Assembly: GCA_001938485.1 (NCBI GenBank) | Contig: MQRK01242779.1 | Location: 1 to 56,025 of the forward strand | From: Girardia tigrina | Lineage: Eukaryota | Length of the DNA: 56,025 nt | Reading direction: 5' to 3' | In this document: piece after piece, positions 3,711 to 53,680 of the stretch | How the letters are laid out: the number at the start of each line of letters is the position of its first letter | Numbering within the stretch: the stretch's first letter is position 1 | Notes under the pieces: generated by a model | What the model saw: the letters and a program-made list of their open reading frames with translations, nothing else | Database searches by the model: none | What the model was told of the DNA's origin: nothing | Program-made: the position numbers and the translations under genes

Positions 3711-3734
3711 AAAATTATTTAAGGACTAAATAAA

Positions 3735-5916: not shown

Positions 5917-6008
5917 GTAAGAATACGACTTATAGAAGAAACGGAACCAAAAGTCGACACATCTACAGCAATGTGCGGTACCCTCGAATCCGTCCGAGCT
6001 CTCGATCA
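5917..6008 (+). CDS. Host gene exon (VRIRLIEETEPKVDTSTAMCGTLESVRALD)
   Basis: tgttag| acceptor and |gtaagt donor; GC-richer than flanks; phase-2 end fits the exon at 10556. Confidence 0.65.
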
Positions 6009-9000: not shown

Positions 9001-12000
9001 TGAAGCAGAATTTTCTGCTCTCATAAGCATAGAAACAAAAAATGAGCAAGACTCAATTCTGTTGAAAATGAATTGAGAATATCAGTCTTAAATATTCAAC
9101 CTGACATTGACACATTATTTGCAAATCACAAAGGTCAAATGTTTCATTAGTAATTTTTAATAATAAAAAATTATCTTGTTAATGTTCATTAGAAATAAAT
9201 AAATGTACTTGTATGTGATTCTTAGATATATGCATGCATTTTGCAATAAAAATATGGAATGTGATTAAAATGTTCGTTTCTAATAAAAACTTAATTTTAA
9301 AGAAATTTTTAAATTGCATATTGGGGTGCCGCCACCTGAAAACGGTTAAGAAAAACTTATTTAAATAGTAACAAAATTTTTTTAAAAATATTAAAGCTTA
9401 ATTTTATTTAATTTTCTTTATTTGGTTTAAAGATATTTAATATTGATGATGTTTTAACTTAACTTAACTTTTCTCATTTTAGATGTTTATCAATTGGTTT
9501 TAGTGTCTTATTAGCACTGATTCACCATAAACCTCTCATTGAGAATCAAAATTCATCTTTTGAAATTGACGAAGTTCTATTTTTGGAACATCGTAATACT
9601 TAACCTTGGAACAATGTGCTTGAGGATTTTGGGAAACTCTTTCAAATTTTTGAATTAAACTAAACATTTAAAATTAATATTAAAATAAAAAAGTAAAAAA
9701 TGAAGATTTATTGTAAAATAAGTAGACGATAAAAAGTGGTATCAAGTTACAATATTAATAATATTTAAAAAGAAATGTTTTAGATCAAATTTAAAGTATT
9801 GAAATTTGTAAATTAAATAAATTTAAAAAATGAATTAAATTTAAAGTAATAAAATTATTAAATTGAATAGTTTTAAAAATGAATTAAAAATAAGACATTA
9901 AGAATAGTTAAACAGAATTTAATAAACTTTTATAAAGTAAATACAATGGGAAGAAAAATAAATATCATAATAAATATTAAAAATTAACGAAGTTTAATAA
10001 AATTTTCATTCAAAAGAAATTGCAATATTTAAAAAATAAATTGAAAATTAATTTATATAATATTTAAAAACAGTTTATTTTTATTTGAATAGTTTTCAAA
10101 TTAAAAAGTTTTATAAAATTAAATACAATACAAAATTTCGAAAATAATAAATTTACATATATTTATATTTACAATTTATTTTGATATTATTGGTTTGTGC
10201 AAGAAAAATGAAAAATCGTTTCTCTGAAATTTACTTTGGCAAAACTTGTTTAAATAATATGTACTATTGTTGTTATTAAATAAAAGTTTCAAAAAATGTC
10301 TTTATCTGAATTCTCATCAGAATGTATTCTCGAACTTAACAATGTGTATATGGGTTTCAATTAATATGTGACACAATAAAGACATATTTTTCATCCAAAT
10401 TCAAATTCTCTACATTTCTTATATAGATTTTTTACACTTTACTGACTCGCTTTTTATGCTCTGATTTCTTGTACAATGGAACTATATATGTTTACTTTGT
10501 AATTGTATAGAAACTGCAATAAGTTATTAAACTGATAAATTACTAATGATTTCAGTCATCATCAGCGACGCTATCCAAATTTTTTAGACACCTTTAAGTT
10601 AATGGTAAGAAAGTTATAAATGTAACTGATTGAAAGACGGAAAATAGTTTTAATTGTGTAGGGCAAACTTAAATATGTTTATCGAACAATTTAATACTCA
10701 GATCTTCATATATTGATTAGAAAATTGCTAAAAATGACATTATATATGTTAGATGTTTTTAAACATCTTCCACGTTGTCAATATTAAAAGACGACATCAG
10801 TTTTTAAGTTTTATTTATCTAAAAAATGTCTAATCCTTTTTATTTAAACAAATTTAATCGAAATTAAATTAATTTATTTTTTTTAATTTTGAGGAACTAT
10901 TAATTTCCAAAATCTCATACTGGTGTAATAAAAATAAATATAGTATTAATAATCTATATTACTTTTTTTTAATTTCTGACAATTAAATAATCTCACCTAC
11001 TTTAATTAAATTTACGAAATTTTGTCATAGTTAACATAACTTTATTTAGTTCTTGATTTTTTTAAAATTAAAAAAAAAAGACTTTGAATTCAATTATTAT
11101 TTCAAAAATTCTAAAAATATTTCCTAAAATATTCCTAACAATATACATGCTGATTCAAATAAGACAAAACATTAAGCTTTATAAAAATAAATCATTATGT
11201 TCTTTCAAGCACCTTTGAAAACTACAAACGGAAATTGTATTTAATCATTGTTAACTAAATCTTTGTTCTTCAGACTTCTTCCATAATACTTTTGATATTG
11301 AGACATTTTGATGATATATTGATATAATATATTGTTGCTTCGGAATACAGATTCACAAAACCCCATTACGAATGGTAAATAGCTTTCTGTTGGTACTAGA
11401 TAGAAATTATTTATTTAATTGTACCAAAAATGCATCGAACCCCTTGAAATATTTAATCATCAATATTATTTTTTAATCGAACATCCAGTCTCAAAACTTC
11501 ACTTCGGTTCGAAAAATGATAAATGCATATATTATAAAGGGTTTCTGAATAGTAATGATTATGATTTTTCTTTATACAATAAAAAAAAATACTTTTTACT
11601 TGCAATTTAATAAAACTTTGAATTTTTTTTATAAAAAATTCACAATAATCAACCTATAATAGGGGATACAATCAAGGATGCTGGATCATTTTTCCATTGT
11701 TGGTGGTGGAAGAGATCCAGATGGATTTGTTAGAAGAGTATATTTTTGATTTTTCATCATGAGATTATTAATAAAAGAAATTTTAATATTTCAGAAGAGA
11801 GATGAAGATTGTTTAAAATGTATGTTACGAATTCCACACAAAAAATGTGAATCGGTGAGTGGATTAAAATAAGTAATAATTATTTAAAAAAATATACAAT
11901 CGTCTCTCGCTAATCCGTGAATTATGGGATCGAAAAAATGTTTTTTAGGTACATTATCGAAATTGACCGGATTAAAGAATGTTGAAAAATATTTTTAAAA

Positions 12001-13346
12001 AAATAAAAAGTCCGAAAGAAAAGATCTGTTACTTATAATAATCTGCCCGAAACAAATTTTTTTCGGTCCCATAATACAAGGATTAACGAAAGTCAAGTGC
12101 ACTCTGAAAATTACAATTTAAATAAAATTCATAAATAAATATTTTAAAAAATAAATTATATTTTATAAAACTTTTATTTGTTTAAGTAATAAAGTTTAAC
12201 AACAAAAGTTAACATTGAAAACTCTGAATTTTGCATTATTTAAACTCAGTTTCTAAACATTTTCTGGAATTTATTTTAAAGTACAATTAATATAAATAAT
12301 AATAAAACAAAAATTAGATATTCTGACACTTCATGAAACGTAAATATCAAATATCAAACTTAATATAATCATTTAAACTTGTTAGATCATTAAAGCTTGT
12401 TAAATTACTTCCTTTTTAAATAACAGATAATTTATTTAATTTTTAAATGATATAATCAAAATATTGAAAAAATATAATTAATAAATTATTCATAATTTTA
12501 ATAAACATTGTTTTGAAAAATAAGTTAAAGAGGAATTATCATAATTTTATTTAATTAGCATAAGTACATTCGAGTTGGAGGAGGATACCGTCACAGCTAT
12601 TACTATGTCAGGATGTTGTTGGAAAGAATCGAGTTGAACAGACAAAGAGAGGAAATGTTGCGGCGTCGACTTGAAGCTATTTCTGAAGGAAGTAAGTAAT
12701 TTTAATTTATGAGAACCTTTTTATTTAGTTTTAAATGTTTTTGTAATTTCTATTAATTGAAGAGGAGAGATAAATATTGAATATGAAAAATTTTTTGTGT
12801 ACTGTGAATATAATGTCAAACATTCAAATCTAAATTTAAAATAATTTAAAGATGTTTTCATTATCTTGTTGCGGCTAAAGTCAATTATTGGCATATTTTT
12901 AGTTTGCCATATGAAATATAATTTATTTTTTATTACTTGATCTTGATTTTATAAATTTTAGTCCTTTTTTAATCTCACAAAAATACTAGATTAAATGCTA
13001 TTGCTTATTTACTTGAGAGGTCATTATGTCATTCGTGTCTTAGGTTAAAATGCTTAAATATGATTGGATGAAACACTTTGCACGTTTAAACTAGCTTTAA
13101 AAACTTAATTAAAAATTTTCCATAAACGCCTTTGTAATGTACGCAATTGTCGCTTACAAACTTGTCATATATTCAAATATATTTACGCACTTGTCTGATA
13201 ACCGTTTTATTATAATAAAAAATTAATTTTAATAATATAGTAATTTAAATATATTCGACACTACATCTACAAATGTATCCAGGAAAAAACTTGTCTTTTC
13301 AAGATTGGATTTTAATAAATATTACAGTTTTATTGAAAAAGTTTGA

Positions 13347-13381
<35 letters not shown>

Positions 13382-13431
13382 NNNNNNNNNNNNNNNNNNN
13401 NNNNNNNNNNNNNNNNNNNNNNNNNNNNNNN

Positions 13432-13469
<38 letters not shown>

Positions 13470-31400: not shown

Positions 31401-31857
31401 ATTCAATCACATCAGAAGATTGTTTTTGGTTTTTTAATGATGCTCGTCGTTATGCTTTAAAAGCAATGAGACGTGAAGAATTTTGATTAAATAAAACTTA
31501 GGAAGAAGAAATATTTTTAAATTACTGTGTATCATTAATGTTGAATATATTGTTGTTGTACGTTTATATTTTTTAACAAAATTAAAGTTTAATTAAAAAT
31601 AAGTTCTGATTTTTATTGAAACGTTTTTGATTTTAATTGAAAAACCCTGTAATTACCATACATCAAATTTTATAATTAAAAATTACACGAAAATTAACAA
31701 TTATTTTTAATTGATATATTTAATTTTACATTCTTTCAAAAATTTTTTAATAACATTTCTGAATTCCTAACATTCTGTAAAGAGATTCTGCAGAGATTCA
31801 TATACTATATTTACAAAAAAATAAAATTCAATTCCAATGGGAGCCGAATTTACCCAT

Positions 31858-31901
<44 letters not shown>

Positions 31902-32229: not shown

Positions 32230-32268
<39 letters not shown>

Positions 32269-35200: not shown

Positions 35201-35896
35201 TCTTGATGTAATGGACCCCTTGATTTTTTTTCAATGATATGTAATAAAAATTTTACAAATACTTCAATAGTTAAATATTATATTTTTATTAATATTCGTA
35301 GTGCTTTAATAGAGCGATAGCCAAGAATTCTGTTTCCAATTATTTTCACAAGTAAAATAGCAATTAGTTATATTTTTTTAAACAAGCTGTAAATTTTTTT
35401 GCAGCCATGACATACTGATGTAGAAACCAATGAGTAACGAGAACATTCGTGACAGCGCAGTCGCAGCTCTCCGGCCCTTGGAGATGGTATCTCGGTGTCG
35501 GGGGATTTTAAGTAATCTCACCAATCCGGACCCAACGTCCAGTTGTTGGGAAAACCACGACTTCATCCTGCTTCGCACCGTCAAACATTTTTTCCGTTCG
35601 TTGTGGAGCGCTTCCGGGTGGCGAAGCTCCCAAACTTTACTAGTTTCAAATTGATATTCATCATTTGCAATTCTAATGAGGACTGATTCGCGTTTCATCA
35701 TCATTTGCGAACAACACTGTAATCATCATTTGTAGTTCTAATGAAGACTGATTCACATTCCCTTTCATAATCATCATCATTTGCAGACAAATTAAAATCA
35801 AATCGCCATTACATTTATTGATTGTAAAAAAAATCAATTTTCAATTCTTCGCAACAATTTACAATTTTAAACATAAAAAAACTTTTTAAATCACTT

Positions 35897-35930
<34 letters not shown>

Positions 35931-38900
35931 TATGTATATTATTTTTTAAAAAACTGATTTCATTTTTCTTCAAATAAAAAAACAATTAATATTGAAAAAT
36001 AAAAACAAAATAATTCGGTCCATTTCTAGAATAAAAAAATCTGATTGACTTATGAAATATAATTAAGATTTCAACGCAATAAATTCATCCATAACATAAA
36101 CCAATGCTAAAAGTGCACAAAATATAAACAAATAAAAATTAACTGGTTGCAAATTTTCAACAAAAGTTATTTTCAAAAAATTGTTTTGTCTTCATCCAAT
36201 ACGTGAAATAACAAAAGAAACATTGCACTTATTACCATAAGATTCGATAAAATTATAATAATTGCACTGACAGCAAATTCCGTGTACACTGGTACTGTAT
36301 AGATACAAATTAATACCGAAAGATTGAGTGAATTTTCAATAAGTTTCATTGAAAGTTTTCTATTACGATTATTGGTAATTTTAAGTGAGTTTTCCATTTC
36401 ATATAACGGCTCGTTGAGGACGAAGTTCAGTTATCCTCACACCAAATTAGCCGAATCCCCAAACCATTAGTGTGTTTTTTTATCAACCCGTTAAAAAGGA
36501 TTTACTATCAAGCATTACAGGTTCAAAATCGTGTTTCTTAAAGGAAATTATATAACATTGGTAGAATGTCCACTGCTTTTTTAGTTAGCAGAAGAGACTT
36601 ACAAAATAAAAATCCATCCTTAATAGATATAAATACAGAGGCATATGTTTATCATTTTGTTGTGATTTAAAAGAAAATTTAAAAACATTGAAAATTCAAG
36701 AATAATTTGGTGTGGCGGACCGCTGAGAATGTATTTATGGACTCAAATTTAAAATAATTAAACATTTCATTTGTGTCATTTAACTAATTTTCGGAAAGGT
36801 AAACAGTTAATTCTTAAAAACGATTATGAGACTCAAAATATTCATAAATATGATTTTTTAACAAACAGAATGAAGATTTCCTTTCCTTATTAATAATTTC
36901 CCTTGGGCCGTTAATCTTAGCGTTTTATAAATAATTAATTACTTTTATTGTAAAAGTTGTTTTTAAAATCAAATCAATTTATTTTCATTGTTCATTATTT
37001 GTCTCCATTTTATTTACAATGGATTCTATGCAAATTAAAAAAATCAAAATGTTTTTCAAATCATATAAAAGAGAAATTACGAGCCATAAAAGTAAAACTT
37101 TCTTTTCAATTTCCAGCTACAAATCATTTGTAAGTGCGGGAGGAACAAGACATGTTAAAAGAAAAAAGAAAAATCTTGATGGGACCTATGGAGATAGTGA
37201 ATCGTACCATAGCAGTCAAGATGAAGATGGAAAGGCTCGACGACGAAATCGAAGACGAAAATTAAAGCATGGTCCCAACAGTGCTCACTCTTATACAAGT
37301 GTTGTCAGTGCAGGAGGAACAAGACATGTGAGAAGAAGAAAGAAAAATCCTGATGGCACTTATGGAGACAGTGAATCATATCATAGTGACGACAGTGCAG
37401 TCTTTAAAGATGCAGAAAAATCTATTCAAAAACAGAAAAAGAAATTAAAAGAAAAACAAAATAATGATAGCGATAGTGATCACTCTTATTTTAGTGTCGA
37501 ATCTGCCGGAGGAACTAAAAGAAAAATGAAACGAAAAAGAATTCGAGATGAACATGGTAATATTGTTGGGTACGGAAAGGAAGTTGAACACGATGGAAAA
37601 GGTTATTTTGTTTTTATTAAATAAAAAATATAAATTTTAGGAATTAAATGTCTTACGTTACCTTTTAACGATAATTTTATTTATGTAATTTTATTTTAAT
37701 AATTTATTAAATATAAAATGAAATTAATTATTCACATTTATTTTTTCATCTGTTATCAAGTGATGTGTTAGAGCAAAAACAATAACAACACCGAAATATT
37801 TATTCAATGTAACTGCGAGATTTCAGTAAAGTCAAATTGCGCACATTTCTGTCCAGTAAAACAAAAACAATATCAACCATATTTGGTTCATGATTAAAAT
37901 TGGAAGTCATAATTTTGTAAACTTTATTTCTACTACAATTTTCATTATTGAAACAAATTTATGAGGAACAATATTTTAATTTCATAATCCAGATCTCAAA
38001 ATTCTAAATATAAATAATAATATCGATAAATATATAAATATGTTATTTTATTCAATTTTGCATAAATATTTTAAAAATATTTTAAAAATTCAATTCCTAA
38101 ATATCTTTCTTTGATTTTAAATCATTCGATTATAAATTATTTCTTTTTAATAAAAACCTTTTATTTGTTTTTAATAAAAATTGCAAAAATAATTTACAAA
38201 TTTAAAATACAATTCACGAACAACACCAGTAGTTTCTCGCTCTCGCTCACAACGGACCTTTTAATTTCCGGATAGCTTGAACGCATTCGTCCAACGACTC
38301 GTCTCGCCTCTACTTCCTTTCGCGTAAGGACTCAAAACAGTCGATTTTCGACATACCGAAAGCCTCGAACAACGGTTTCTATATTTCAGCTTGTTTCTCC
38401 TTCGAATCATCGCTTAGATTGTTCCACACATCATCAGATGCGCCCTCCAGAAGCATCGGGATGACTTCTGTTATACATACCTTCGTAATTTTCGCGACGG
38501 TCGTTAATTTTTCCGTCCAGGCCACCACATCATAATTTTTACCGTCGAAAATTTTTATCGACTTAAGAATTTTCGACATAAATCCGATGATAGCTTGTAA
38601 GAGCAAAAACAATAACAATACCGAAATATTTATTCAATGTAACTGGGAGATTTCAGTCAAGTCAAATTGCGCGCATTTCTGTCCAGTAAAACAAAAACAA
38701 TATCAACCATATTGCTACATGATGAAAAAACCAAATTATAAAATATTCTGTATATTGTTTAATTTAAATGATAATTATTCCTAAATTGAATTTATTCTAT
38801 CTTATTACATCGTGTGTTTTTATGTACCATATATTTAAGTGTATAAGACGGAACTTGCTCCCTAAACATTGTCCCCAAAATAGGGAGCAAAAAAACTGTA

Positions 38901-41900
38901 AAAAATGATCGTTTTGTCCTTTTCTAAGTAAGGAATGTGAATTATACTTACCGTTTGCACCAAAAAAAACTGTATTCATGATATTAATATTTTTGACAGA
39001 CAAATAAACTTTGGTTTACTTCAGCTTCGATTCGTGAGAAACCATTTGATGTTTCGACTAAAAATCCCTGGTCTCTGGTGTGTTGCGATGGGTTAAGATT
39101 TGAGGTTATTAAATAACGTAAAAACAATCATATCATCGTGTTTGAATATGGTCCAAAACCCTTTCAAAGTGATCAAATGATTGCGCTTGTTTATCAGTCA
39201 AATGTTGCTTATATTTTGGCAGAGAGCATTCGCGTTCCCAAATAGTTACCAAAAATATTGAATCTTATTCAACAACTGTAGATTCTCCTTCCATCGGTTT
39301 TATCATCTGTTTCTTGACATTATTCATCAAGAATACTCGTATGACCGCATTCAATATTTTATTGTTTATATTGAACGCACAGACTTACCTGGATTTTCCG
39401 CAAATAAGCGCAAGCGCTTGTATTTAGTTTTTATGTTTTTATGTGTTCCACTTTGTCCCCCAAAATAGGCGCATGTGCTTATCTCTGCAAACTGCCATTT
39501 TTACCTCGAAATTGCATTTTATATAAAAAATGAATTAAATTATATATTAAATAAAGAAAAATTTATTATTATCTTTATTAATAAAAATTGAAATTCATAC
39601 ATTTACTCATGTAAAATTTATACATTCCATAGGAATCTCAAAAAATAACTGTTGGTTCATTTTTAAAGTAGTTCCCTACAATAAATATTATATTGATAAA
39701 ACAAAGTCGCTAATGTAATTAATATTTACATAACTAAACTTGTTTCAAAATGTTTCAATGTGTGTGAACAAAAATCTAATCTAAAACGGAAATTAAATTT
39801 CATCGATAAATAAATTAACGTGTAGCAAGTGTAAAAGTGCTAAAAACAGCTAAAAATCCGTAACAGTTGAATTGATTAAAAAATAATTGGTCAAAAAATA
39901 ATTGTTGTAGTTTTCATTTTTCCCATAAATTTCGGGCTTTAGGTTAAAACCACTACAATTATTTTTTGACCAAGTTTTTGATCAATTCAAATGGAAGCAA
40001 AAATCAGTCTTTATGTCCCCCAAAAGAGGAGCATGCACCTATTTTGTGAAACAAAAACAATAAGCACAGTTGCGCTTATTTTCGGAAAATCACGGTACTG
40101 TAACATTGTTTAATACGTTTTTGTGAAGTTGTTTAAATTTATGACTAAAAAAAATACAATCCAAATGACACAGCCAGCTCTAAACTGGGCCATGATCATT
40201 CGAAGGATAGACTTTACGAATAATATGCTTTTGGTGGTACTTGACTGGGTTGAAAGTTTTCATGATGAGGCTGATTTAAAAATTTTTAAAAAATTATTTA
40301 ATTTTAACAGAGATAAACAATTAGTTTTCTTAAAATTATGGGAATAATGTTTTACAAACCCAAGCATCTACGAAAAAAAATGATTGAATGTATTTTTTAA
40401 ATCATTTTATTTCACATTTTAGGTAAAATCATCGACTCAAAAAATAAGAAAAAGAGGCGGGACCATGACTCCGACAGTGAGTTTTCCTACTTTAGTGAAG
40501 TTAGTGTAGGTGGTACCCATTATAAAAAACGAAAAAAGAAAATAAGAGATAAACAAGGAAAAGTAATTGGATACGGCAAAGAAGAAGATTACAGTTCGGG
40601 TAATATTTACTCTAAAATAATAATAAATTATCTAAATCTTTTATTACATTATTCTTAGTAATTATTCTAAGTTTTAAAATAGTAGGCAATATAAAATATT
40701 AAAAACAAGACAATAATAAGACCATTTCATTCAAATTTGTATTCATATATACCTGTAAAGTTTCACCTGTAAAGACATCCACAGTATTTAGATAATATAC
40801 TTTGCCTTACCAAAATCACCGATCACCTATGTATTTCCCAATAATTTATTTTTTTCTGACATCTTTCACTCTGAATGGCATCTTTTACCATGAAGATGCA
40901 TAGTCGGTATCAATTCTAATCAAATGATTATTATTCCTTTTTCATGACGTTGCAGCACTAGTAAAAATATTTAATTTCCACGAAACACATACATGATGCG
41001 TCCAATAAGTCGTGAGACTAATATGGAAATAATAATAGTAAAAAATTAATACAGACATTTATACTTTAATAAATATAGATTAAGAAAATGTATTTTGTTT
41101 TAAATTATCCATTATTTTTTAAGTCAATTTTTGAGAATATTCAAAAAATACCACTAGAAACTATTCAACTATAGCGTTATTCGCTATCTCTTTCTGAAAA
41201 GACAAAGTAGAGAAGAGGTTCTTTCTGAACTAAAAGCTGTTTACCAACAAGAGTGTACATCTACAGTAACAATGTTTCGTTGGCTCAATTTCTTTCCGAG
41301 TGGTAGAACCTCTGTGATGGACGTAGAAAAATCTGGAAGACCCTCGGAAATTGATGAAGAAATTACGCAAAATCTGCAGATAATCGTGCAAAATGAGAGA
41401 AAAATAACGACGAGAGAGCTTACAACCCGTCTATATGCGAGCAAAGGCACTCTGTATACTCTTCTCACTGAAAGTAGTATTCAAAAACTATGTTCCTGTT
41501 TTGCACCACGCTTCTTAACGGTGGAAATGTGACAATGACGTTTAAAAGGTTGCTTGGAGAATCTGCAGACCAGGACCAATTACACAGAGACCGGTCAATT
41601 GATAATATCATAACTGTGAACGAGACATCATTGTCCCTTTATGTCTTCAAATCCAAAAAAAGTTGCAAGAATGGAAACAGCGTTTTGGGACGCCAATGAT
41701 ATTATTCTGACTGACTTTGCTGAATGTGGAGTGAAGATCAATAGCTCTTATAACTCCAACATCACGCAGCAAGCAAAGAAGGCACGATGCAAGAACAGAG
41801 TGTGTGAACTCTATTTTTATCACGATAATGCTCCCATCCATAACAGCAGCGTTTGCATGGCCACAATTTAGCATTGTGGATTCAATTTGACTCAATAAGA

Positions 41901-44900
41901 GTCTTGCCACAATATCAAAGTGGTGAAGGTAGTAAAAAAGTGAAAGTTGTGATTCCTCACTCAACACATTCGCATCATAGACTATTTTGATCGTCGTCAG
42001 TTAATAATAAAAATAAATATTATATAGTTCAAAATATTTGTTAAAATTCAATATAATTAAAGTATACTGAAATTAAAATGGTAAAAATTGATTTTATTCA
42101 TTTTGTGACTTAAAAACTAAACATATGTTATAAATTAAAATAGAATCAAATATTTTTCTCGTGGCAACCATTGAAAACATTGAGTCTGAGAATTAAATGT
42201 GGTATATTGTATTTAGAAGTACTTTATGAAATTATTAATTGACCTCCTATTAAACATAAAGCAGGAAGCAGGAAACTATGTCATAATTAAAGCATTGTTC
42301 TCATTTAAAATTGTATTCATGTAGACATTCCATATAATACCATCAAATTCTGCAAATAAATCAGAATTATCTTATCAATAAATGGTCCTATGTTGAATTG
42401 AAAAGATCTTTTTCAAAGTTGGTACGGAAGATTTACCAAATGCACAATATCCAATTACTTAAGCATTACAGGGCTTCCCACTTGATTTAAGGCAATACGT
42501 AAATACTTTAACCCTTACATCTTTAGAGTAAAAATCAGTTAAAAACATTTATAAGATATATATCACATTATTTCATTTTTAACTTTTCTCTCTTTCAAAA
42601 ATTTCATTTTTACAAATAAATATAATAAATAAAAAGAGCAAAAATTTTGGCATCAAACAACATTTATAACAACATTTTTTTAAATATTTCTCTTCGAATT
42701 CCTTTTACGCGAATTCTCGCATATGCTGGATGTAATTTTTATATCATTTTCAGTTATAAAATCAGCAATATGATTTATCGCCACAAAAAGCTCATCCCTA
42801 TTTGCGCTATTTGACTTTTAAATTAAATTTTTCCATTTCGGAAAAACTTCTTCAATATGGTTTAGTTGTGCACAATAAGGTGACAAATATTCAACATCAT
42901 GATCACAACTGTTTATAAAATCATTTATTATAAATCATTTATTAAAATCATTCCTTTATGTATACTAAAGTTATCGATTATAAGTTTCAATCCATCCATC
43001 TTATTTTCACGCATCATTAACATTAATTCATGCATATATAACATAGATCCATCTCGATTATATGCTAATTCTTTAATCTTACTAGTAAATCACAAAATTA
43101 AAATTTTTATATTCATTCTTTATGCAGAGAGAACTCTACTTCGCCAACAAAGTTTTTAAAATTTAAAAATTTAAGATTTAAAAATTTTAATTTAAAAATC
43201 ACATTAAAAATTAATATAAACTACTTATAATTTATAAGTAGATATCTTACAATTAATATTGTTCGGGAACTCCGAACTTTCCGTTTTTACCCATTTTTGA
43301 TCTTAAAAAGTTTTTTTCGATCAAATTTTTACATAATCATTTATTGTCATCGGGAATGAGTAAGTGTATAAAGTTTGAAGAAAATCGATTGAGTAGAAGG
43401 CCTTCAAAAACAGGTTTCTAAATTTGATGGATATATATATATATATGTGTGTATATATACCTATATAGAAAGTAAGTTAATAAAAAGACTGAAAAATGAA
43501 CTATTTTGTTTTAGATATTGTTGCCAAAACCGAAAATTTTTTAGATCTTATCGTCGTTACACTTTATCGACGAACACTGGGGTCAAATTTTTGTCGTGCG
43601 CTTCAACTAATACCTACCCATCCAAAAACAATATTTTTTCATCATCCCATGTCAAAAATTAGGTGCATTATTCGAATCTTTTATCAATATTGTTCCAATC
43701 ATTGCTACGTATTGCTACTAATTCAAATTTTTTAATGTGTAATTTAAAATTTATAAACATCGGTGTATCGATACATCGGACTTCGATACATTTACACTGA
43801 TGTCAGATAACTTTGCTTGCAATTTTTTTCATCTAACTGAAACATCATTATCAATTTCTTGCCTGGTCGATTGCTCAGTTACTGTTGATTTTTTTTCTAT
43901 CGGCTTTCAAATCTTTTTAACACTAATTCTTGCAGTATGCTCATATAAAGTTATAATTGAGGCAACCGTTTTGCTATTAATGTCCATTTCAGCGCCAATA
44001 AGTGCCAGGTTTTTTCCCTCTTCATATCATTTTTTTAATTATACGCCGTTCGTCATCCGCAACTTTGTGTTTACTATTTATTGTATTTTGCATTAAGGGA
44101 ATAAAAAAAATTAATTTATAATATTATAAAAATAATTGACTTTGATGTATGTTTTTAGCTAAAATTTTAATTCTCTTGATGTCATCATCATCAAAGAATT
44201 GATGTCATCATTGGTGTTAATGAAAACCCCATGTATTATTATTATATAATCATTTTTTGAAATTTTTTATGTAAAATAATTTATAAAACTTTGATGTAAG
44301 GCAACATAGAAACCTCCTTTTGTCATAGTTTTAAAAAAACTTTTATTAATTTATTCATCATGTAAGCCTAGCATTTACAATACTTAATAATATATATTCG
44401 TATATTTAGCTCTGGAAATTATCTTTTCCCTTTTAAAGAATTATTAATAATAAAACTATTTAATTTAATGCTTTAACTTAATTATTAATAATATAACGAA
44501 TATAACTTCTTTTCAGATTCTGAAGAAAGGTAAAGTAATTTTGGTTTGTGTTTTTTTTCTAATACATTTTAATTATTAATATTTTTAAAAACATTTTTCT
44601 GGTTCATCTGTTGCATAAATAAAAATTTCAAAACTAACGTCCCTGCGTTGATAGAACACCGAATATGTTAAAACGTCCTATGAACATAGGGAGTAATGTC
44701 ATAGAAGATACTGTGTTAAAACACATTTGATAGAAACTGCAGAGTATCTTTGACTTTTAAAATATTTGGAATCACTGTACATAAATAAACGATAATGTAT
44801 AAAAAAAGTATGTCTCTTCAAAATATTTCTAACTTTACTAAGGTAGTAGTGTAGAATGTTAAAACTTTTGATAAGTTGAGTGTATCATTGGAATATACAA

Positions 44901-47900: not shown

Positions 47901-50900
47901 TTAATAAAAGACGAAACAAAATCTTTATGACAAAATTTTAATTTACTTTATAATTTTTTATTAAAAAAAAGTATAGAATTTTAATTCGAAAAAAATAAAA
48001 TAACCATATTTATATTTATATCAATTCTTATTTATAATGGCTTGTGTAAAAAAAAGTGCAAAAGTTCCTCGGAAATATTTGTTTAAAAAAACTCAAATTG
48101 TGGTAGAAATAAAGTTTTGTGTTCATGACAACGTCTTTTGATCAAGAACCCAATATAACGTAAGAGCATGGAGACACAAAAGCTAGTAGCTCTCATGAAC
48201 AAAATAACAACGACATCAACAAAAGCTCTCTGCTTCTTTTGAATTGTAATATTTGATAGCAATCGACAAGAAGCCTCATACAATTGCAGAAATTCTTGTG
48301 CTTTACAAGAAGCAATAAAAGTATTCAATTTTGTGAAAAGTCAACCTCTAAATGCTCGTTTATTTTCTGTGCTCTGTAAAGAAATGCAATCGGATCATGA
48401 TTCACTTCTCATTCACACTGAGGTAAGATGGCTATCAAAAGGCAAAGTACTGCAACGTCTAGTTGAATTGAACCACGAAGTGTGCATTTGTCTGGAAAAT
48501 GCTAATTCTGAACTAGCTAAACATTTTACAGATTCAAGATGGCTTGAAATTTTATCATTTCTGGAAGATATTTTTCATAAACTTAATGACCTAAAAACTT
48601 CACTTCAAGGGTCAAATACCAACATTTTTCAACTAAACAACAAAATTACTGGGTTTATAAAGAAAATAACTCTTTAGAAAACGCACTGTGAAAATGACAA
48701 CATTGCAATGTTTGAGAACTTTAATGCATGTTTAAATGATAACGAACTTCATTTTCACGAAGTAAAATTATTAATAATAACTCATCTCACTAATCTTAAA
48801 GTTCATTTTGGTAAGTATTTCGATGATTTATCTCTTTCTAAGCATGAGTGGATCAGGAGCCCATTCAATGACATTGAAGAAATAAGTAATCTTTCAATAT
48901 CACAGCAGGAAAAGCTTTTAGAATTGTCATCTGATGGGACTCTAAAAAAGAAATTTGATACAGTACTACTAGCTGAATTTTGGATACTTGTTAAAAATGA
49001 ATATCCTCAACTTTCTGAACTAGCCATGTCAATTTTAATTCCGTTTACTTCTACCTACCTGTGCGAGAAGGCATTTTCCTCAATGGTAAAAATTAAAACT
49101 AAATCTCGAAACCGTCTGCAAGTTGAAGGAGATCTTCATCTTTCATTGTCACCAATTCAGCCAAGAATGGACCTTCTTTGTTCAAATATACAATCCAATC
49201 CTTCCCATTAATTGTAATGATTGAATATGATGTTATAACTTTGCCTGTTATTAATAAAGTAAAAACTTTTTTAATATTTCTTTTTTTTATTATTTTTTTA
49301 TTTTATTATTTTATAATCAAATTATGTTAAAATTTAATACAGTTTGGTATTCGTTCCCCAAAATTGTCTTAGTGCCCCCCCCATAAATGTTTACGCGCCC
49401 ACATAAGGGGGCACGCCCCTAACTTTGAGAACCACTGCATGCGATGACAAGGCTAAGCCCAACTTACGACCCCATGGAATTAGAATCAGACAGAAAAAAA
49501 ACCATCCAAAGGTTTTAGTATGTTGCGTAAAACATGAAATTCGAAAATTAACATTATAGGATCTTGAAGAAGTTTTATATTTTAAAAAGAAAGACTAAGA
49601 TTGTTTTACCGAATAATTAATAATAAAACGGTTTAATAATTAGTTTTAGATTTTATGTATTCTCGTTATTTTAGTTTTAACGCATTTAATCTAATTGATT
49701 TTCAGTTTCATTACGATTAGTGATGGTAAAGGAGGAAAAATTAAAGTAGCAAATCCTAAAAAGAAGGCTAGAAAATATTCTCGAGTCTTTTCAGACGCCA
49801 CAACAGATTCAGATGTTGTAAGAGAGAGAATGAAAAATATGACTGAAGAAGAAAAACAACAATATTTGGCGGAACGTGCTAAAAGAGCTGAAGAAAGAGA
49901 ACAAAAACGAAAAGAGAAATATGGTGATAAATATGAATCAATGAAAAAAATATATGACAAGTTAGCAAACTTTTAAATCTAAATTAATATTGTTTCTTTT
50001 ATTTTTAAGGAAAAAAGAGTTATATAAAAATAGAAAACCATCCGTTCAATTTTCAGACGCCACAACAGATTCAGATGTTGTAAGAGAGAGAATGAAAAAT
50101 ATGACTGAAGAAGAAAAACAACAATATTTGGCGGAACGTGCAAAAAGAGCTGAAGAAAGAGAACAAAAACGAAAAGAAAAATATGGTGAAAAATATGATG
50201 AGATGAAAAAGAAATATGACAAGTAGTTTATTATTTTTTTTCGATTTTATGTTATGATCACAAAAGGAAAAAAGAACAAACTAAAGCAGAAAAGGCAAAT
50301 GCAAAAGAGTAAGAGAAAGTCATTTAAATATTATGAAGTAAACTACAATAAAATTACAGGTTACTTAATAAAAAAGGCAAAATGTTTGCTAAAGATGGAA
50401 ATGAAGCTGATGTTGAAAGTGACGGTGAAGGGAAGAATACTGGAAAGAGAAGGAAAACGGTAAACAGGCCGGGCAGTGTATCCTCCTCTGTAGAATTGGT
50501 ATGCATGATTTAAATATGGGATTATTTAATTAACATAAATAATAATAAAGATTAGAGACGAGGAAGGAAGAATAATCAAAAAAATTAAAAGAAATAAAGA
50601 TGGAACGATAGAAGAAACCGAATACGGTAACGATAATTATTTTATACATTGAAAGCAAAAGAGTATATTTTTAGATAAGGATGGGAAAGTTATAAGTAGG
50701 AAAATAAAAACTAAAAATCAAACTAACGATGACGATGACGATGATGATGGCGACTATTTCGAAATTGGACCGGATGGAAAAATTCGTCTCAAGCAAGGGA
50801 AAACAAAAATTGATTTAAAGAATTTGTCAAAGGAAGATTTAATTAAATTAGGAATAGATCCAAATTTATCGAAAGCCGAACAATTGCGATTGCTAAAAGT

Positions 50901-53680
50901 ATTTGATGATATATATTTATAAAATTGACCAAATGTTTAAGGAAATGTTTGGGGAAAATATTGATGTTGTTTACGGTAAAAAGAAAATCGGAGTGAAAAA
51001 TGCAGAAGATTATGGAAGTGATGCGAATACCACAGATTTGGCAGAAGACAGTGACATCGATATAGACACAGGTTGGAGGTTTAAGTAATTACTACGCCGT
51101 TTATTCTGCATTCCAATATTCTAAAACGAATATTTAACAAGTATATCAAGATACTGATAAAACTATCAAAAAGTCTTTGATAATCTTTTAATAATTTCTG
51201 TATTGAATTCCTTTTTACAGAATTAGTAGTAATAGTACTATCTAAACATATTAAGTACAATTTTATCTGTACATGTACACGTACCTTTGCACATTTAGAC
51301 CATCTATATGCGAACAAATACAGCAGCGCATTAATGTTTTTGGCTCGCTTTTTCTAAAAAGATATAATAGTATATGTGAGCAATATTTTAAATTGTTTGA
51401 ATGTGTAAATGTATTGATGCTGTATGTTGATTTGAGTATGTTGTACTTAGAATGGTGATTCTCTCACCCATATATAAATTGGTATTTTTTTAATATTTAC
51501 ATGATTGACTATTCGAACATAATAATAATAATTTGATAAGTTTATATTTTTAAAATTAAATTTAATATTTTTTTAAGAAAACGAAAGCATTTAACTATAT
51601 TAAAAGCCGCTTATAGTGGCCACCGCTTAAGAGTAACCACCTTGATGTACGCACTGTATATGCAGCAACCTTTAATGCATGCTTTGGCGCTGACTTTGAC
51701 TTATAAATAGAACTTAGTATGTAATGGCCAGTCGGTTATAGTGGCCAATTTTAACAATTTGATAAAATGTTTATTATTGTGAGTTTTTGTTGAAAATGGT
51801 TAAAATTATTATATTTAATTAATATTTTTAGAAATTACGTATTTTAAAAAGATTTAGAAAATTGTTCGAATAATCATGATTAAAAATAGAAATAAAACAA
51901 CCAATTACAGCGATGTCAAACGGTAAACGATTTGTCGAGAGTTGTGATGACTCTACATGTGATAATAATAAAGATTCAAATGAAAATTGTCTCAATGTCC
52001 TTAACATTATAATAAAAATGTTATGATAAATTAAAAGGCGTTGCCGTTTGGCTAAAAGATTCTATTATGTGGCATAAATGCTTTTTAGATGTAACATTGT
52101 AATATTCTTTGAAAGTTATAAATCATAACAAAAGTAACGCTAGATCATGAGTGATTATTTTCTTTGTTTCCATAGTTCTACTTTCAAAATTTTTGCTATT
52201 CAAATTATGCTTTTTAAATTATTTTGCAGGAGTTAATTAATAATTAGTAAATTTTGTAATTACAAATGTGAGTAATATTTTGAATGATGAAATATATGTT
52301 GCTTCATGTTTTTTTAGTACTGTGTCTCTACTACCGAGAAGGTCGATTGGTATTTTTAGTGTTAAAATTTAAAATATAATTTAAATTAATTTATTTAATT
52401 TAATTTAAAATTTATTATTAGAGTTAAATTTGAAATTTCGAAAAATATCACAAAAAAAGATATAAAAAATTATTTAACTTAATAAAATATTAATTATCAA
52501 ATTAAAATTATAAAATAAATAAAATTGTTAATATTTGTATGAATAAAAAGGATTTGCCAAACAGATTTTCATTTCAATCAATAACGATGTCCATGAATGA
52601 AAGCTCTACTAAGGATTGTTCCAATGATGATCCAAATTGTATTTATAATAAAATTAATAATCAATCTCTGATAGATTATGGTATTTTTAGTTCATCCCAA
52701 AGTACTAAAGAATTAAGTAAACATTTTAACAAAATATTATAACCTAAACATCATCAAATTTTTATTCTTGGCAACAATATTATGAAATCTGGTAAATTGT
52801 TTTTGAGTTGTGGGAATTCGAACTGCTTTAAGATGAAATATTTATAAAAGATTTAGGAAGTTATGGAAATTGAATTATAGTTTTGATTTTATAAGTGGAA
52901 GAGGTTGATAAAATATAATATTTTAATTAAATTAATTTGAATAATATTTAAATTAAGACATTCTTGTTCCAAATGATAAAGGTAAATTCTTCAAGGAAGG
53001 ATTCATACGCATGATTTACGACCACAATTTTTATTTGTTTTGGTTGACTGAATTATTTCACTCTCATAATATCATAAAAAATATTATTAAATTTTAAAAA
53101 TGTCTTTAATCTTATTCAGATATTAAATAGTTTACTTTCTTTAAATAAAACATTGCATAGTTTTAACAACTAATTGTTAGTCAAACCTGATCAGCGGGTC
53201 AAAATAATTCTTAAACGAGGAGGAAAGCCCCTTCAAGATCATATGAAATCGGTTGTAGAAAAATCTTTTTTAGAGATTTTTCAGTCAAATGATGAGAAAA
53301 GTACTGAACTAATTATTAATTATTAACTTTATTCACAATTTTGACAGATTCAAAAGTTAACTTTTTATCAACTTATCGCTTGGTAGATCCAAATAATTTG
53401 GAGAAATACGCTCGTTTTTTTGCGGTTGAAGATCATGATGATATGGACGGGATTATTAATTACAAAGTAGTCCATGATGTTTTATTCATTATGAATTGTG
53501 TTTCGTTCAGGGCTGTCGAACTGCTATCATGAATTTGAAAAGAACTCAAGTTATTAACAATTTGACGGAAAAACAAACGGATTATATTATGCTAGCTCTC
53601 GATATTGACAAACATACCGAAATTACGTTCCGAATGTTTTCTGTGATTTCAGCTCTTGCAGACAGGGTAACAAAATTGGA
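5917..53680 (+). CDS. Large multi-exon gene (22 exons reconstructed, ~1195 codons, incomplete at both ends): uncharacterised charged repeat protein with C-terminal EF-hand-like pair
   Basis: Exons 5917-6008, 10556-10604, 11351-11374, 11663-11737, 11795-11854, 12559-12691, 23976-24749, 24794-24878, 26236-26367, 37117-37601, 40423-40599, 44517-44529, 49706-49960, 50010-50222, 50267-50308, 50360-50498, 50551-50626, 50675-50898, 50942-51071, 53181-53300, 53348-53466, 53511-53680. All have AG/GT boundaries; total 3587 nt with matching phases and no stop. The 5' small exons are less certain than those from 23976 onward. Confidence 0.85.
6309..7985 (+). mobile_element. Degenerate LTR retrotransposon pol (RT - RNase H - integrase Zn finger)
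   Basis: VVQTAKGKVRLVLDFQA*NELLSSH...CVEKLR*FRRMG...IIDWRWFYLQI (6916-7090); VWCKASSI and SHINLIELEA...LMTD (7420-7620); HHFGV...CSHC (7860-7975). The left boundary is approximate. Confidence 0.75.
8020..8364. repeat. Foldback/MITE-like element with ~75-bp imperfect inverted arms
   Basis: aacagaaaagaattctgcaaattattacaaaat... matches inverted ...attttgtaataatttgcagaactcttttctgtt. Confidence 0.65.
8500..9357. mobile_element. Rearranged Charlie/Buster-type hAT remnant
   Basis: Minus strand 8520-8797: TTGKDVF...VGICTDGA...THC...HEAL...LKQVLDEVIKMV. Plus strand 8795-9150: NPF...FWVE...LLQFSTSYLCEAEFS. TIR-like end near 9340-9357. Confidence 0.8.
9615..10341 (+). mobile_element. Probable AT-rich solo LTR
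   Basis: Ends GAACTTAACA like the other copies; similar A-rich body; aacaatgtg repeated at both boundaries. Confidence 0.4.
10556..10604 (+). CDS. Host gene exon (HHQRRYPNFLDTFKLM)
   Basis: ttactaat branch-like site, ttcag| acceptor, |gtaaga donor; bridges phase 2 to phase 0. Confidence 0.6.
11351..11374 (+). CDS. Candidate 24-nt symmetric microexon (IHKTPLRM)
   Basis: tacag| and |gtaaat; phase 0-0, so it is not required for frame. Confidence 0.45.
11663..12691 (+). CDS. Host gene exons 11663-11737, 11795-11854, 12559-12691 (GIQSRMLDHFSIVGGGRDPDGFVRR / KRDEDCLKCMLRIPHKKCES / HKYIRVGGGYRHSYYYVRMLLERIELNRQREEMLRRRLEAISEG)
   Basis: Canonical GT-AG introns (first is 57 nt) and open frames; phase-1 end matches the exon at 23976. 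Confidence 0.75.
11897..12098. mobile_element. Tigger/pogo-like MITE, degenerate
   Basis: CAATCGTCTCTCGCTAATCCGTGAATTATGGGATCG versus inverted CGGTCCCATAATACAAGGATTAACGAAAGTCAAGTG. Confidence 0.5.
14462..16853 (+). mobile_element. AT-rich solo LTR interrupted by a mariner
   Basis: Starts TGTTGAG, ends TCAAGAACCCAACA as in the copy ending at 48155; ~1.07 kb once the mariner is removed; TSD only 3/5. Confidence 0.55.
15046..16366 (+). mobile_element. Full-length mariner (DD34D, cecropia/Hsmar1-like TIR); transposase disrupted
   Basis: TA|TTAGGTTGGTCGAAAAATAATGGCGGTTTT and its inverted copy ending at 16366|TA; motifs LVPHDL, IVTCDDK*ILYDN, HHDNARPH, YSPDFSPTD; frameshift near 15650 and an in-frame stop. 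Confidence 0.93.
16870..17130 (-). mobile_element. Possible 3' remnant of another RTE-like LINE
   Basis: Heavily decayed resemblance to RTE C-terminal residues. Confidence 0.3.
18125..18431 (-). pseudogene. myo5: Myosin V N-terminal exon fragment (SH3-like region and start of motor)
   Basis: ELYSKG...[35 protein letters not shown]...IYTYCG matches class V myosin. Conserved W/W/P/P/F are substituted, the expected donor reads GA, and the next exon (IVLVAINPY) was not seen. Confidence 0.85.
18948..19123. mobile_element. pogo/Tigger-type MITE
   Basis: TA|CAGTGAAAGCCGCTTATAGTGG ... CCACTATACGCGACTTTAACTG|TA; related copy at 51598-51750. Confidence 0.8.
20205..21876 (-). mobile_element. Full-length pogo-superfamily (Passer/POGK-like, DD35D) DNA transposon
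   Basis: TA|CCGTAATTTCCGCACTATAAG and CTTATAGTCTGGAATTTACGG|TA; internal subterminal TATAAGCCG repeats. Confidence 0.92.
20477..21655 (-). CDS. pogo-like DDE_1 transposase, 392 aa
   Basis: Brinker-like and CENP-B-like HTH N-terminus; NMDE, ICDSMRAH, QPLDISVN with 35 residues between the last two Asp. Confidence 0.9.
   Translation of the reverse strand: MNRSSYTSEWKLKAIKLAQSNGNRKTALELNVNESMIRRWRKQENELRQVKKSRKSFRGNTPKWAHLEDDLKNLVYEMRSVGRCILTVSIWVKAKTLAKELGIMNFSGGQSWCTRFMKQNNLSIRCKTTLAQRLPADFEEKVSIFREFCQTKIAEKNIHYDSIFNMDEVSIPFDMPANHTIEQVGAKSVPIMTTGNEKTSCTVVLACSSSGLKLPPMVIFKRKTLPKGIFPDGVVVTAHEKGWMDEKLMQAWVGEVFIKRPGVFFHTSSSMLICDSMRAHLTEAVKSLLRRANSVLSVIPGGFTKIVQPLDISVNKSFKVKLRNTWEEWMMSGDHTFTKTGGQRRVDFVTITKWILESWNTIPTSTIINGFIKTDIINSSGVQGVIETKIKL
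22004..22710 (+). mobile_element. HINE/DINE-1-like element family A (two heads, either side of a gap)
   Basis: 5' TACAAGCTTTTAT, (GTTT/GTCT)n microsatellite, TGAAATTT/TGAAACTT motif, 3' inverted ATAAAAGCTTGTA followed by hairpin ACCAAAAA-TTTTTGGT. Confidence 0.8.
22712..23105 (+). mobile_element. HINE/DINE-like repeat family B, copy 2
   Basis: Similar to 4494-4880; ends GATTTACTAG; directly abuts the family A element. Confidence 0.72.
23976..24749 (+). CDS. Host gene exon with four ~60-63 aa RTKSGRxxEK repeats
   Basis: ORF 24059-24775 extended upstream to a gactag| acceptor; donor aaag|gtaaat. Confidence 0.92.
24794..26367 (+). CDS. Host gene exons 24794-24878 and 26236-26367
   Basis: 44-nt intron before the first exon; accag| and |gtaagt around the second; phases consistent; the second matches ORF 26165-26371. 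Confidence 0.85.
25056..25870 (+). mobile_element. Degenerate mariner remnant
   Basis: TA|CGTGGTACGTTCAATAAGT TIR-like start; VREFKGGRTSV, LITKDETP, KGVILMDF; related to 40992-41900. Confidence 0.65.
26700..26860 (-). mobile_element. RTE-like LINE 3' fragment
   Basis: EEGKVCFGTVPRGRDK*SPW resembles the RTE C-terminal EGxxxGxRPRGRxxxxW. Confidence 0.4.
26940..27315 (-). pseudogene. Decayed host-gene fragment, BTB-BACK-like
   Basis: EIAIENVC...FNLK*ECC...DIIKLNFKTFMEMIDKSNI across frameshifts; resemblance judged by eye only. Confidence 0.35.
27335..27900 (+). mobile_element. HINE/DINE-like element related to family A
   Basis: ACCACGTTTTT (27341) with inverted AAAAACGTGGT (27871); (GTCTGTTT)n; CAAATCTTGCGAT block shared with family A. 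Confidence 0.72.
28711..29030. mobile_element. hAT-type foldback MITE
   Basis: TAGGGCACGGAATTTAATGACC termini, ~130-140 bp inverted arms, perfect 8-bp TSD ATTATAAA (28703-28710 / 29031-29038). Confidence 0.9.
29680..30030 (+). mobile_element. maT/DD37D-like transposase remnant
   Basis: FFSDEQNFT and SVHILIIVSSEVNVMKLHFF...INSDIYPDVL. Confidence 0.55.
30309..31649 (+). mobile_element. Full-length IS630-like DD34E Tc1/mariner-superfamily element; transposase disrupted
   Basis: TIRs CAGGGTTTTTCAATTAAA; ORFs 30463-30753 (HTH) and 30923-31486 with FLDEAG, MDNYAIH, PPYSPQLNPVE (D34E); stop and frameshifts between the ORFs. Confidence 0.88.
32229..32266. repeat. (TAA)n microsatellite
   Basis: Direct read; (TA)n tracts also at 163-185, 13355-13461, 31858-31899, 35899-35927. 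Confidence 0.9.
37117..37601 (+). CDS. Host gene exon with three SYxSxxSAGGT basic repeats
   Basis: ORF 37019-37624; ttccag| acceptor in phase 2; donor aaag|gttatt. Confidence 0.9.
37766..38719 (-). mobile_element. Miniature LTR element: ~124-bp LTRs, gag remnant, no pol
   Basis: Direct repeats 37766-37890 and 38596-38719, outer TG...CA, perfect 5-bp TSD TGATG; gag-like IFDGKNYDVVAWTEKL...IPMLLEGA. Confidence 0.88.
39388..40095. mobile_element. pogo/Tc2-type non-autonomous element
   Basis: TA|CCTGGATTTTCCGCAAATAAGCGCAA ... TTGCGCTTATTTTCGGAAAATCACGG|TA; GTCCCCCAAAA subterminal motif; internal inverted repeat 39888-39974. Confidence 0.72.
40423..40599 (+). CDS. Host gene exon with fourth SYFSEVSVGGT repeat
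   Basis: ttttag| and |gtaata; translation parallels the third repeat in the previous exon; missed by the ORF track. Confidence 0.88.
40992..41900 (+). mobile_element. Degenerate mariner
   Basis: FRWLNFFPSGRTSVMDVEKSGRP, FAPRFLT, IITVNET, TAFWDANDII, HDNAPIH across broken frames. Confidence 0.8.
42680..44095 (-). mobile_element. Second IS630-like DD34E transposase pseudogene, split by a HINE
   Basis: N-half 43500-44095 (...TIRSKKFSVLATISK) and C-half 42680-43080 (IIDNFSIHK...YLSPYCAQLNHIEEVFPKWK) parallel the 30309 element. Confidence 0.8.
43080..43500 (-). mobile_element. HINE/DINE-like repeat family B, copy 3
   Basis: Reverse-complement match to 22712-23105; interrupts a transposase. Confidence 0.75.
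44517..44529 (+). CDS. 13-nt microexon (ATTCTGAAGAAAG; D-S-E-E-S)
   Basis: cttcttttcag| and |gtaaag; converts phase 1 (40599) to phase 2 (49706). Confidence 0.72.
45020..45452 (-). pseudogene. Decayed host-gene fragment, possibly ankyrin-repeat
   Basis: GC-richer block after a tttgtttag acceptor; GIHVDFMDIQSGRTRLD resembles ankyrin GADVNxxDxxGxTPL; contains stops. Confidence 0.35.
46060..49437 (+). mobile_element. Charlie/Buster-type hAT element, internally deleted and interrupted
   Basis: TIRs CAGTGGTTCCCAAA / TTTGAGAACCACTG; TSD 6/8 (CCTGCTAT/CATGCGAT); BED finger PQCVFCSEILANDSLKP, KKPHTIAE, HTEVRWLSKG, PFTSTYLCEKAFS; central catalytic part missing near 48300. Confidence 0.92.
47218..48155 (+). 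mobile_element. AT-rich solo LTR inserted in the hAT transposase
   Basis: TGTTGGG...CCCAATA with 5-bp TSD GAACG/TAACG; removing it restores YFER-KSMETQ. Confidence 0.8.
49706..51071 (+). CDS. Cluster of seven host gene exons (duplicated SDATTDSD charged-helix exons, then acidic/basic region)
   Basis: Six GT-AG introns of 43-52 nt; continuous frame; accounts for the ORF fragments at 49695, 49990 and 50903. Confidence 0.9.
51598..51750. mobile_element. Truncated copy of the 18948 MITE
   Basis: Shared AAAGCCGCTTATAGTGG...GCAGCAACCTTTAATGCA...GGCGCTGACTTTGACTTATAAA. Confidence 0.75.
53181..53680 (+). CDS. Host gene exons 53181-53300, 53348-53466, 53511-53680, EF-hand-like region
   Basis: 47- and 44-nt introns; FAVEDHDDMDGIINY and ALDIDKHTEITFRMF resemble EF-hand loops with flanking helices; donor |gtaaga at 53681. 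Confidence 0.85.

What the first reader, a model, noticed from the sequence alone, without database searches (positions are those of the whole stretch)
5917..53680. Uncharacterised >1190-aa protein built from three unrelated repeat families plus EF-hand-like C-terminus
Seen: hand splicing gives one open frame, in this order: short Cys/His exon, charged helix, four RTKSGR repeats, four SAGGT repeats, two SDATTDSD charged-helix repeats, acidic/basic linker, and two EF-hand-like loops. I do not recognise a named family. Inference: a repeat scaffold, possibly calcium-regulated, binding a polymeric ligand (for example ciliary or sperm microtubules, or nucleic acid). This is the best candidate in the window for an undescribed system.
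Basis: partly seen in the sequence, partly recalled or inferred. Interest (0 to 1): 0.7.

Follow-up and report, generated by a model that had tools for sequence, protein, structure and literature searches.

The report
Ancient unnamed EF-hand repeat scaffold
This is a real, spliced animal gene (likely from a flatworm) for a roughly 1,350-residue charged repeat protein ending in a predicted four-EF-hand domain; it belongs to an unnamed family found from choanoflagellates to frogs and likely serves as a structural part of motile cilia.

Summary
The gene is real. Twenty exons (5917-53680) give 1,170 stop-free residues; about 179 more lie on another contig. RNA contigs from 4 of 4 runs confirm six introns and both SDATTDSD copies. 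Collinear full-length orthologues occur across spiralians and invertebrate deuterostomes, none characterised. The C-terminal domain models as four EF-hands, not two, and defines a wider unnamed family in choanoflagellates, a sponge, cnidarians and non-mammalian vertebrates. The RTKSGR repeat models confidently (pLDDT 86) as a small hairpin-helix unit without a clear PDB match. Function is inferred only: most likely a scaffold of the motile-cilium apparatus (about 50%). No localisation data were found. Verdict: undescribed, ancient family; worth naming and testing, mechanism unproven.

The parts
5917..6008 (+). Probable 5' coding exon (basic, RPSSRS); start codon lies further upstream and was not found
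   Evidence: AG/GTAAG boundaries, in frame with 11663; only such candidate in 1-11600; no RNA laid
11663..11737 (+). Exon with GGRDPDGF motif
   Evidence: tblastn to Macrostomum and Cichlidogyrus N-termini; contig length check
11795..11854 (+). Cys/His exon, C-x2-C-x5-H-x2-C, predicted zinc knuckle
   Evidence: motif in 54 of 62 homologue rows that carry RVGGG; zinc binding inferred
12559..12691 (+). RVGGGY motif and charged helix; most ancient N-terminal signature
23976..24749 (+). Four ~60-aa RTKSGR repeats in one exon; predicted beta-hairpin, two helices, strand per unit
   Evidence: AlphaFold2 pLDDT 85.7, pTM 0.59; no clear fold match
24794..26367 (+). Two exons (24794-24878, 26236-26367) with DPLTGK and RTKDGR hairpin-like motifs
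37117..37601 (+). Three SAGGT repeats: Ser/Tyr/acidic tract followed by basic tract
40423..40599 (+). Fourth repeat (SVGGT)
   Evidence: RNA loose end
44517..44529 (+). 13-nt microexon
   Evidence: RNA loose end in 4 of 4 runs located with AG/GT
49706..50222 (+). Two exons (49706-49960, 50010-50222), each with SDATTDSD plus an E/K/R-rich helix; recent tandem duplication, 9 differences in 175 nt
   Evidence: joint 49960>50010 in 4 of 4 runs
50267..51071 (+). Five exons of mixed-charge linker and conserved pre-EF segment, introns 43-52 nt
   Evidence: RNA joints; model
53181..53680 (+). Three exons: lead helix and EF-hand-like motifs 1 and 2; motifs 3 and 4 and the LPKI end lie on contig C8639 (locus L007, minus strand 2607-about 1975)
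   Evidence: fold of the Cichlidogyrus orthologue domain

Best explanation
The locus is one spliced gene for a soluble, highly charged repeat protein with a predicted zinc knuckle, predicted folded RTKSGR repeats and a predicted four-EF-hand C-terminal domain, and it likely works as a structural scaffold of the motile-cilium apparatus (axoneme surface, basal body or rootlet) in ciliated somatic cells. Inferred mechanism: the conserved ends (LPxI/L motifs, knuckle-RVGGG, EF domain) would dock on partner proteins; the RTKSGR units would act as semi-rigid spacers; the basic tracts would grip an acidic polymer such as tubulin tails. The first EF loop would let calcium tune docking in most animals, whereas the flatworm loop is likely calcium-insensitive. 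Shown: gene, splicing of one block, architecture, conservation, family tree. Predicted: folds. Inferred: place, partners, calcium effect.
For: No signal-peptide-like start in 0 of 55 full-length rows and no transmembrane-like stretch in the model. Middle region about 25% K+R and 19% D+E. Named hits come from groups with motile cilia on the body surface, larvae or collar cells (that trait is recalled knowledge): spiralians including the reduced orthonectid Intoshia, amphioxus, hemichordates, echinoderms, tunicates, cnidarians, a sponge, eight choanoflagellate proteins, fishes and amphibians; no arthropod or nematode name appears in these lists. Presence in choanoflagellates argues against a role needing muscle or neurons. 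LP-x-I/L within the last 50 residues in 34 of 55 rows (shuffles: mean 2.8, maximum 9) and the first 25 residues in 32 of 47 (mean 1.7, maximum 7) (rows are related, not independent); that such ends are common in ciliary proteins is my recollection. Four-EF fold, troponin C Z 8.4, rmsd 2.6 over 86 residues. Macrostomum gene not gonad- or neoblast-annotated.
Against: No localisation, proteomic or knock-down evidence. No sequence match to any solved axonemal protein. Two paper searches found nothing tying the LPxI motif to cilia. The taxon list rests on named hits only: 28 newly named of 150 listed of 343, so absence from ecdysozoans and mammals is 'not seen', not shown; mammals have many motile cilia, and no non-choanozoan flagellate was named, which does not fit a core axonemal part. 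Choanoflagellate rows fall outside this gene's own clade. EF-hand fold hits are generic (muscle, endocytic and ciliary proteins tie within 1 Z). Deuterostome orthologues have an Arg/Ser-rich middle (18-29 RS/SR dipeptides in 3 of 4 rows counted, 8 in the fourth) that also fits a nuclear protein. 'Non-Specific' expression fits any somatic role.
Confidence: 0.5

Rival explanations
1. An actin- or myosin-associated elastic scaffold (microvillar collar, cell web or obliquely striated muscle), working like caldesmon or a PEVK-type spring with a troponin-C-like cap.
For: E/K/R-rich helix after SDATTDSD; top fold hits include troponin C and myosin light chains; the Atlas cluster of this family carries the automatic name 'caldesmon-like'; choanoflagellates have an actin collar (recalled).
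Against: Fold hits are generic EF-hands at Z under 8.5; the automatic name has no family support in the aligned part; not seen in arthropods or nematodes, which have muscle.
Confidence: 0.2
2. A nuclear mixed-charge, RNA-binding scaffold (speckle-like), with a zinc knuckle and basic tracts binding RNA.
For: Long basic tracts resembling nuclear localisation signals; RS/SR-rich middle in deuterostome orthologues; conserved Cys/His knuckle; weak Foldseek rows of the repeat to a ribosomal protein (E 0.056 and above).
Against: No RNA-binding domain in Pfam; spiralian rows have almost no RS dipeptides (0-5); patchy range unusual for core nuclear machinery; not neoblast-annotated in Macrostomum.
Confidence: 0.15
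3. A sperm-specific structural protein.
For: Broadcast spawners dominate the named hits; charged repeat proteins are common in sperm (recalled).
Against: Macrostomum Mlig002220.g1 is 'Non-Specific', with no testis-region or germline annotation; Macrostomum sperm lack flagella (recalled) yet the gene is intact; relatives exist in choanoflagellates. The row is for copy g1, the protein used here is g3.
Confidence: 0.08
4. The exons belong to separate genes or the duplication is an assembly artefact.
For: No single RNA contig spans the whole laid stretch; some mollusc annotations split or fuse neighbouring paralogues.
Confidence: 0.02

Closest known systems
Calmodulin/troponin C/centrin-type four-EF-hand proteins
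   Same: Two lobes of paired helix-loop-helix in the model; Z 8.4 to troponin C, 7.2 to a TREX2 centrin chain; weak sequence echo to calmodulin from a choanoflagellate relative (E 0.58).
   Different: Fused to 1,000 residues of repeats; at most one loop near-canonical, none in this species; own conserved tail (FLDY..YIPLF..H..I..NPLD); under Pfam EF-hand cut-offs.
GAR/GAS2 microtubule-binding domain (Pfam PF02187)
   Same: Shares the core R-V/I-G-G-G-aromatic, seen in five GAR loci of the same genome; both occur in proteins with Cys/His and EF-hands (the latter for GAR is recalled).
   Different: No Pfam GAS2 match at E 10 for six motif segments; GAR flanks score no better than shuffles against the family profile (196-1171 of 2000 shuffles as good).
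Caldesmon, trichohyalin and similar charged single-helix scaffolds
   Same: E/K/R-rich helix and overall composition; databases give some homologues such automatic names.
   Different: Compositional likeness only; no shared domain found.
Lophotrochin and trochin (spiralian ciliary-band genes, PMC7441323)
   Same: Unnamed conserved proteins with spiralian-expanded motifs; same kind of candidate.
   Different: This gene has deuterostome and cnidarian orthologues; its identifiers and motifs were not in the four supplementary files held as text. I read part 1 of 7 of the main text.
BRK domain (CHD7)
   Same: Weak 30-residue match to the segment before the EF domain (E 0.17).
   Different: Not significant; that segment models as a helix in the Cichlidogyrus domain.

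Membership tests
EF-hand superfamily (fold) | Paired helix-loop-helix with short beta contact | tested here: met
   Four such motifs in the AlphaFold2 model of the flatworm orthologue P0054; EF-hand proteins fill the fold lists. Model of an orthologue, not of the window protein.
Calcium-binding EF-hand (canonical loop) | Ligands at loop positions 1, 3, 5 and Glu at 12 | tested here: not met
   Window loop 1 has an insertion and Gly at 12; 61 of 88 homologue rows meet a loose version of the rule. Loops 2-4 non-canonical by inspection (alignment).
Calcium-binding EF-hand (canonical loop) | Measured calcium binding | not testable with these tools
   Needs calorimetry or a shift assay.
GAR/GAS2 domain | R-V/I-G-G-G-aromatic core | tested here: met
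GAR/GAS2 domain | Profile match over the about 69-position domain, with the downstream L..(H/Y)DPC signature | tested here: not met
   No GAS2 hit; flanks not above shuffles and no DPC signature.
GAR/GAS2 domain | GAR fold | not tested
RHS/YD repeat proteins | Many YD repeats forming a shell | tested here: not met
   Over cut-off in 2 of 24 homologues with no stretch passing alone, from short Y-E-Y-D hairpins; none in the window exons.
Any solved repeat fold (for RTKSGR unit) | Structural match well above background | tested here: inconclusive
   Foldseek: none at E 0.001 in PDB or viral library; VIA best Z 5.0, rmsd 2.9, 56 residues.
Ciliary proteins | Localisation to cilium, basal body or rootlet | not testable with these tools
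   Ciliome tables of 10.1101/153437 could not be seen; no expression atlas could be tied to this gene.

The most novel reading that the evidence does not exclude
An unrecognised family of at least three paralogues, older than animals, builds a calcium-tunable structural element of the flagellum-collar apparatus from choanoflagellates to amphibians; one paralogue gained a new small repeat fold in bilaterians and multiplied it (one copy in deuterostomes, usually four or five in spiralians) as a spacer for the multiciliated epidermis, and was lost where body-surface cilia were lost.
Probability: 0.3. Interest if true: 0.7.

Novelty: new variant of a known kind. Interest (0 to 1): 0.47.

Why it matters
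A family conserved for more than 600 million years with no Pfam entry and no name is a ready target in planarians, where RNAi gives a direct read-out on gliding. If ciliary, it would be a component missed because flies, worms and possibly mammals lack it, and a marker for how collar cells and ciliated epidermis are related. The RTKSGR unit may be a new small fold. If it proves a generic charged scaffold, the value is mainly annotation.

Tried and rejected
Complex prediction of the N-terminal motif plus first repeat against the C-terminal domain (nemertean orthologue) gave no answer, score 0.01; it says nothing either way. ESM Atlas search of the repeats gave no usable hit; for the C-terminal domain only sub-0.9 EF-hand leads. 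Fold searches for the repeat found no clear match, which does not prove a new fold. GAR membership rejected; BRK and RHS hints rejected as weak. X-box scan was uninformative because the transcription start is unknown. Paper searches: RTKSGR 0; six homologue identifiers 0; six more 0; RVGGG 14 listings, none about this family by title and abstract; LPxI with cilia 1 irrelevant; LPPI with axoneme 0; one search was swamped by a bare number and is uninformative. These cover open main texts only. Supplements unreadable: PMC10396302, PMC10781443; ciliome tables of 10.1101/153437 (only passages of its main text seen) may hold the Nematostella or sea-urchin orthologue. PMC5816591: one supplement searched, no hit. 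Earlier scan findings: none.

Full report
Setting. The window is a whole contig of a 1.43-Gb, 255,254-contig genome, about 29% G+C, with transposon relics in large introns. In a tree of the C-terminal domain the gene groups with the monogenean Cichlidogyrus (100/93) and Macrostomum (100/91), so the host is likely a flatworm; a planarian is my inference from genome size and composition.

Observation. tblastn with eight homologues maps them in collinear order. An 18-exon model from 11795 to 53680 has AG/GT at all boundaries and no stop in 1,115 codons; three exons on contig C8639 extend it to 1,294 residues ending LPKINFST. Two further 5' exons keep the frame (1,170 residues in the window), so the protein is about 1,350 residues plus an unfound start. 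Assembled RNA contigs, laid on 49690-51090 only, splice six introns in 4 of 4 runs, reveal a 13-nt microexon and link to the flanking exons. The runs are guessed or unlabelled as RNA, but their contigs skip GT-AG introns. One upstream contig has exactly the 1,934 letters that the model predicts from 11663 (arithmetic). A search of the genome with one repeat hit this locus only (a floor, not a proof).

The duplication. The two SDATTDSD exons differ at 9 of 175 bases and are spliced to each other. Of 35 full-length spiralian rows, 23 have one such unit, 7 none by the motif used, 5 two; in three bivalve rows the second comes with a larger duplicated or fused block. It is a recent exon duplication, not an old repeat family.

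Range. The repeat exon finds 42 proteins among 3,918 candidates; all 35 with a species name are spiralians, labelled uncharacterised or with automatic names. The C-terminal domain finds 65 long and 87 short proteins, adding amphioxus, a hemichordate, echinoderms, tunicates and Intoshia. My own profiles show that 18 of the 20 long deuterostome rows carry a single RTKSGR-type unit, 17 of them with the N motif, followed by an Arg/Ser/Asp-rich middle in place of SAGGT repeats. Spiralians have mostly five (26 of 35) or four (6 of 35) units. A full phmmer search gave 343 hits, 150 listed; of 29 looked up, 28 were named: 8 choanoflagellate, 1 sponge, 4 cnidarian, 7 fish or amphibian, 4 mollusc, 4 invertebrate deuterostome, all uncharacterised. 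Of 58 new proteins over 500 residues, 18 match a loose RVGGG pattern, one by chance inside the EF domain; none of the named vertebrate rows has it upstream. The tree (51 chosen rows, named ones plus one unnamed; midpoint root; three long branches) gives three animal groups: this gene with cnidarians, invertebrate deuterostomes and spiralians (100/100); a group with the vertebrates (100/100); and a third mollusc-ambulacrarian group (100/99) near Sycon and some choanoflagellates. The host genome holds exons resembling the other two groups as well.

Structure. The four repeats model at mean pLDDT 85.7, each a hairpin with the RTKSGR turn, two helices and a returning strand; pTM 0.59 means their relative placement is unsure. 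No fold match stands out. The other repeats share a similar S/T/D-x-x-G-K/R/T turn between strand-like segments, so they may share a hairpin design rather than be wholly unrelated (inference from sequence). The C-terminal domain of the Cichlidogyrus orthologue models as four EF-hands (pLDDT mostly 75-96 over residues 11-220), best Z 8.4 to troponin C, with many EF proteins tied below. Loop 1 keeps calcium-type ligands in 61 of 88 rows under a loose rule, isoforms included; flatworm rows have an insertion and lose Glu12. C-x2-C-x5-H-x2-C precedes RVGGG in 54 of 62 rows. The RVGGG core is shared with GAR domains but nothing else is.

Function. Nothing here measures it. A soluble, charged, modular protein with conserved docking-like ends and a range among organisms with motile cilia or collars is most simply a scaffold of the ciliary apparatus (0.5). 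Against this: no match to solved axonemes, no literature support found for the LPxI lead, untested absences, and an RS-rich middle in deuterostomes. Actin or muscle scaffold (0.2) and nuclear RNA-binding scaffold (0.15) remain. The only expression datum is one supplement row: Macrostomum Mlig002220.g1 is 'Non-Specific' by position, has no neoblast or germline annotation, and is lower in octets than in pairs or isolated worms (PMC7336406; supplement row, legend and main-text passages seen).

Novelty. It works, by prediction, like an EF-hand-capped repeat scaffold, a known kind; it is a member of the EF-hand superfamily by fold but of no named family tested. My searches of open full texts found no description; subscription papers and several supplements were out of reach. 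Interest 0.47: an ancient unnamed family with a possibly new small fold and a cheap test, but no demonstrated mechanism.

Noticed in passing
window:18051-18473 (-): Open frame with a weak myosin-head match (E 1e-4, residues 85-119) inside the 11-kb intron, opposite strand; stray exon of a nested gene or a captured fragment.
   Followed up: no
window:20480-21673 (-): Unbroken 398-codon pogo/Tigger-like transposase frame (DDE_1 E 2e-27, Tc5 HTH) in an intron.
   Followed up: partly
window:15210-16286, 30451-31483, 47024-49208 (+); 1469-3311 (-): Decayed mariner-like, Tc1-like and hAT transposases and LINE-like reverse-transcriptase pieces.
   Followed up: partly
L008:2236-2460 (+) and L009:1650-2170 (-): Exons of two further paralogues of the four-EF domain in the same genome, one closest to the vertebrate-containing group, one to the third group; each appears on three contigs.
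   Followed up: partly
window:11663: One RNA contig begins, by its length, exactly at this acceptor while two others run 270-281 letters further; this may mean alternative 5' exons or trans-splicing (arithmetic).
   Followed up: no
P0008 and P0131; P0005 and P0046: Molluscs appear to carry an adjacent shorter paralogue lacking the N motif and RTKSGR repeats (consecutive locus numbers), fused to the main gene in some annotations.
   Followed up: partly
window:11795-11854: The Cys/His exon is missing from three homologue models that have the flanking sequence (P0033, P0037, P0041): annotation error or a skipped zinc-knuckle exon.
   Followed up: no
window:49706-53680: Eight introns of 43-52 nt here, against introns up to 11 kb elsewhere in the same gene.
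   Followed up: no
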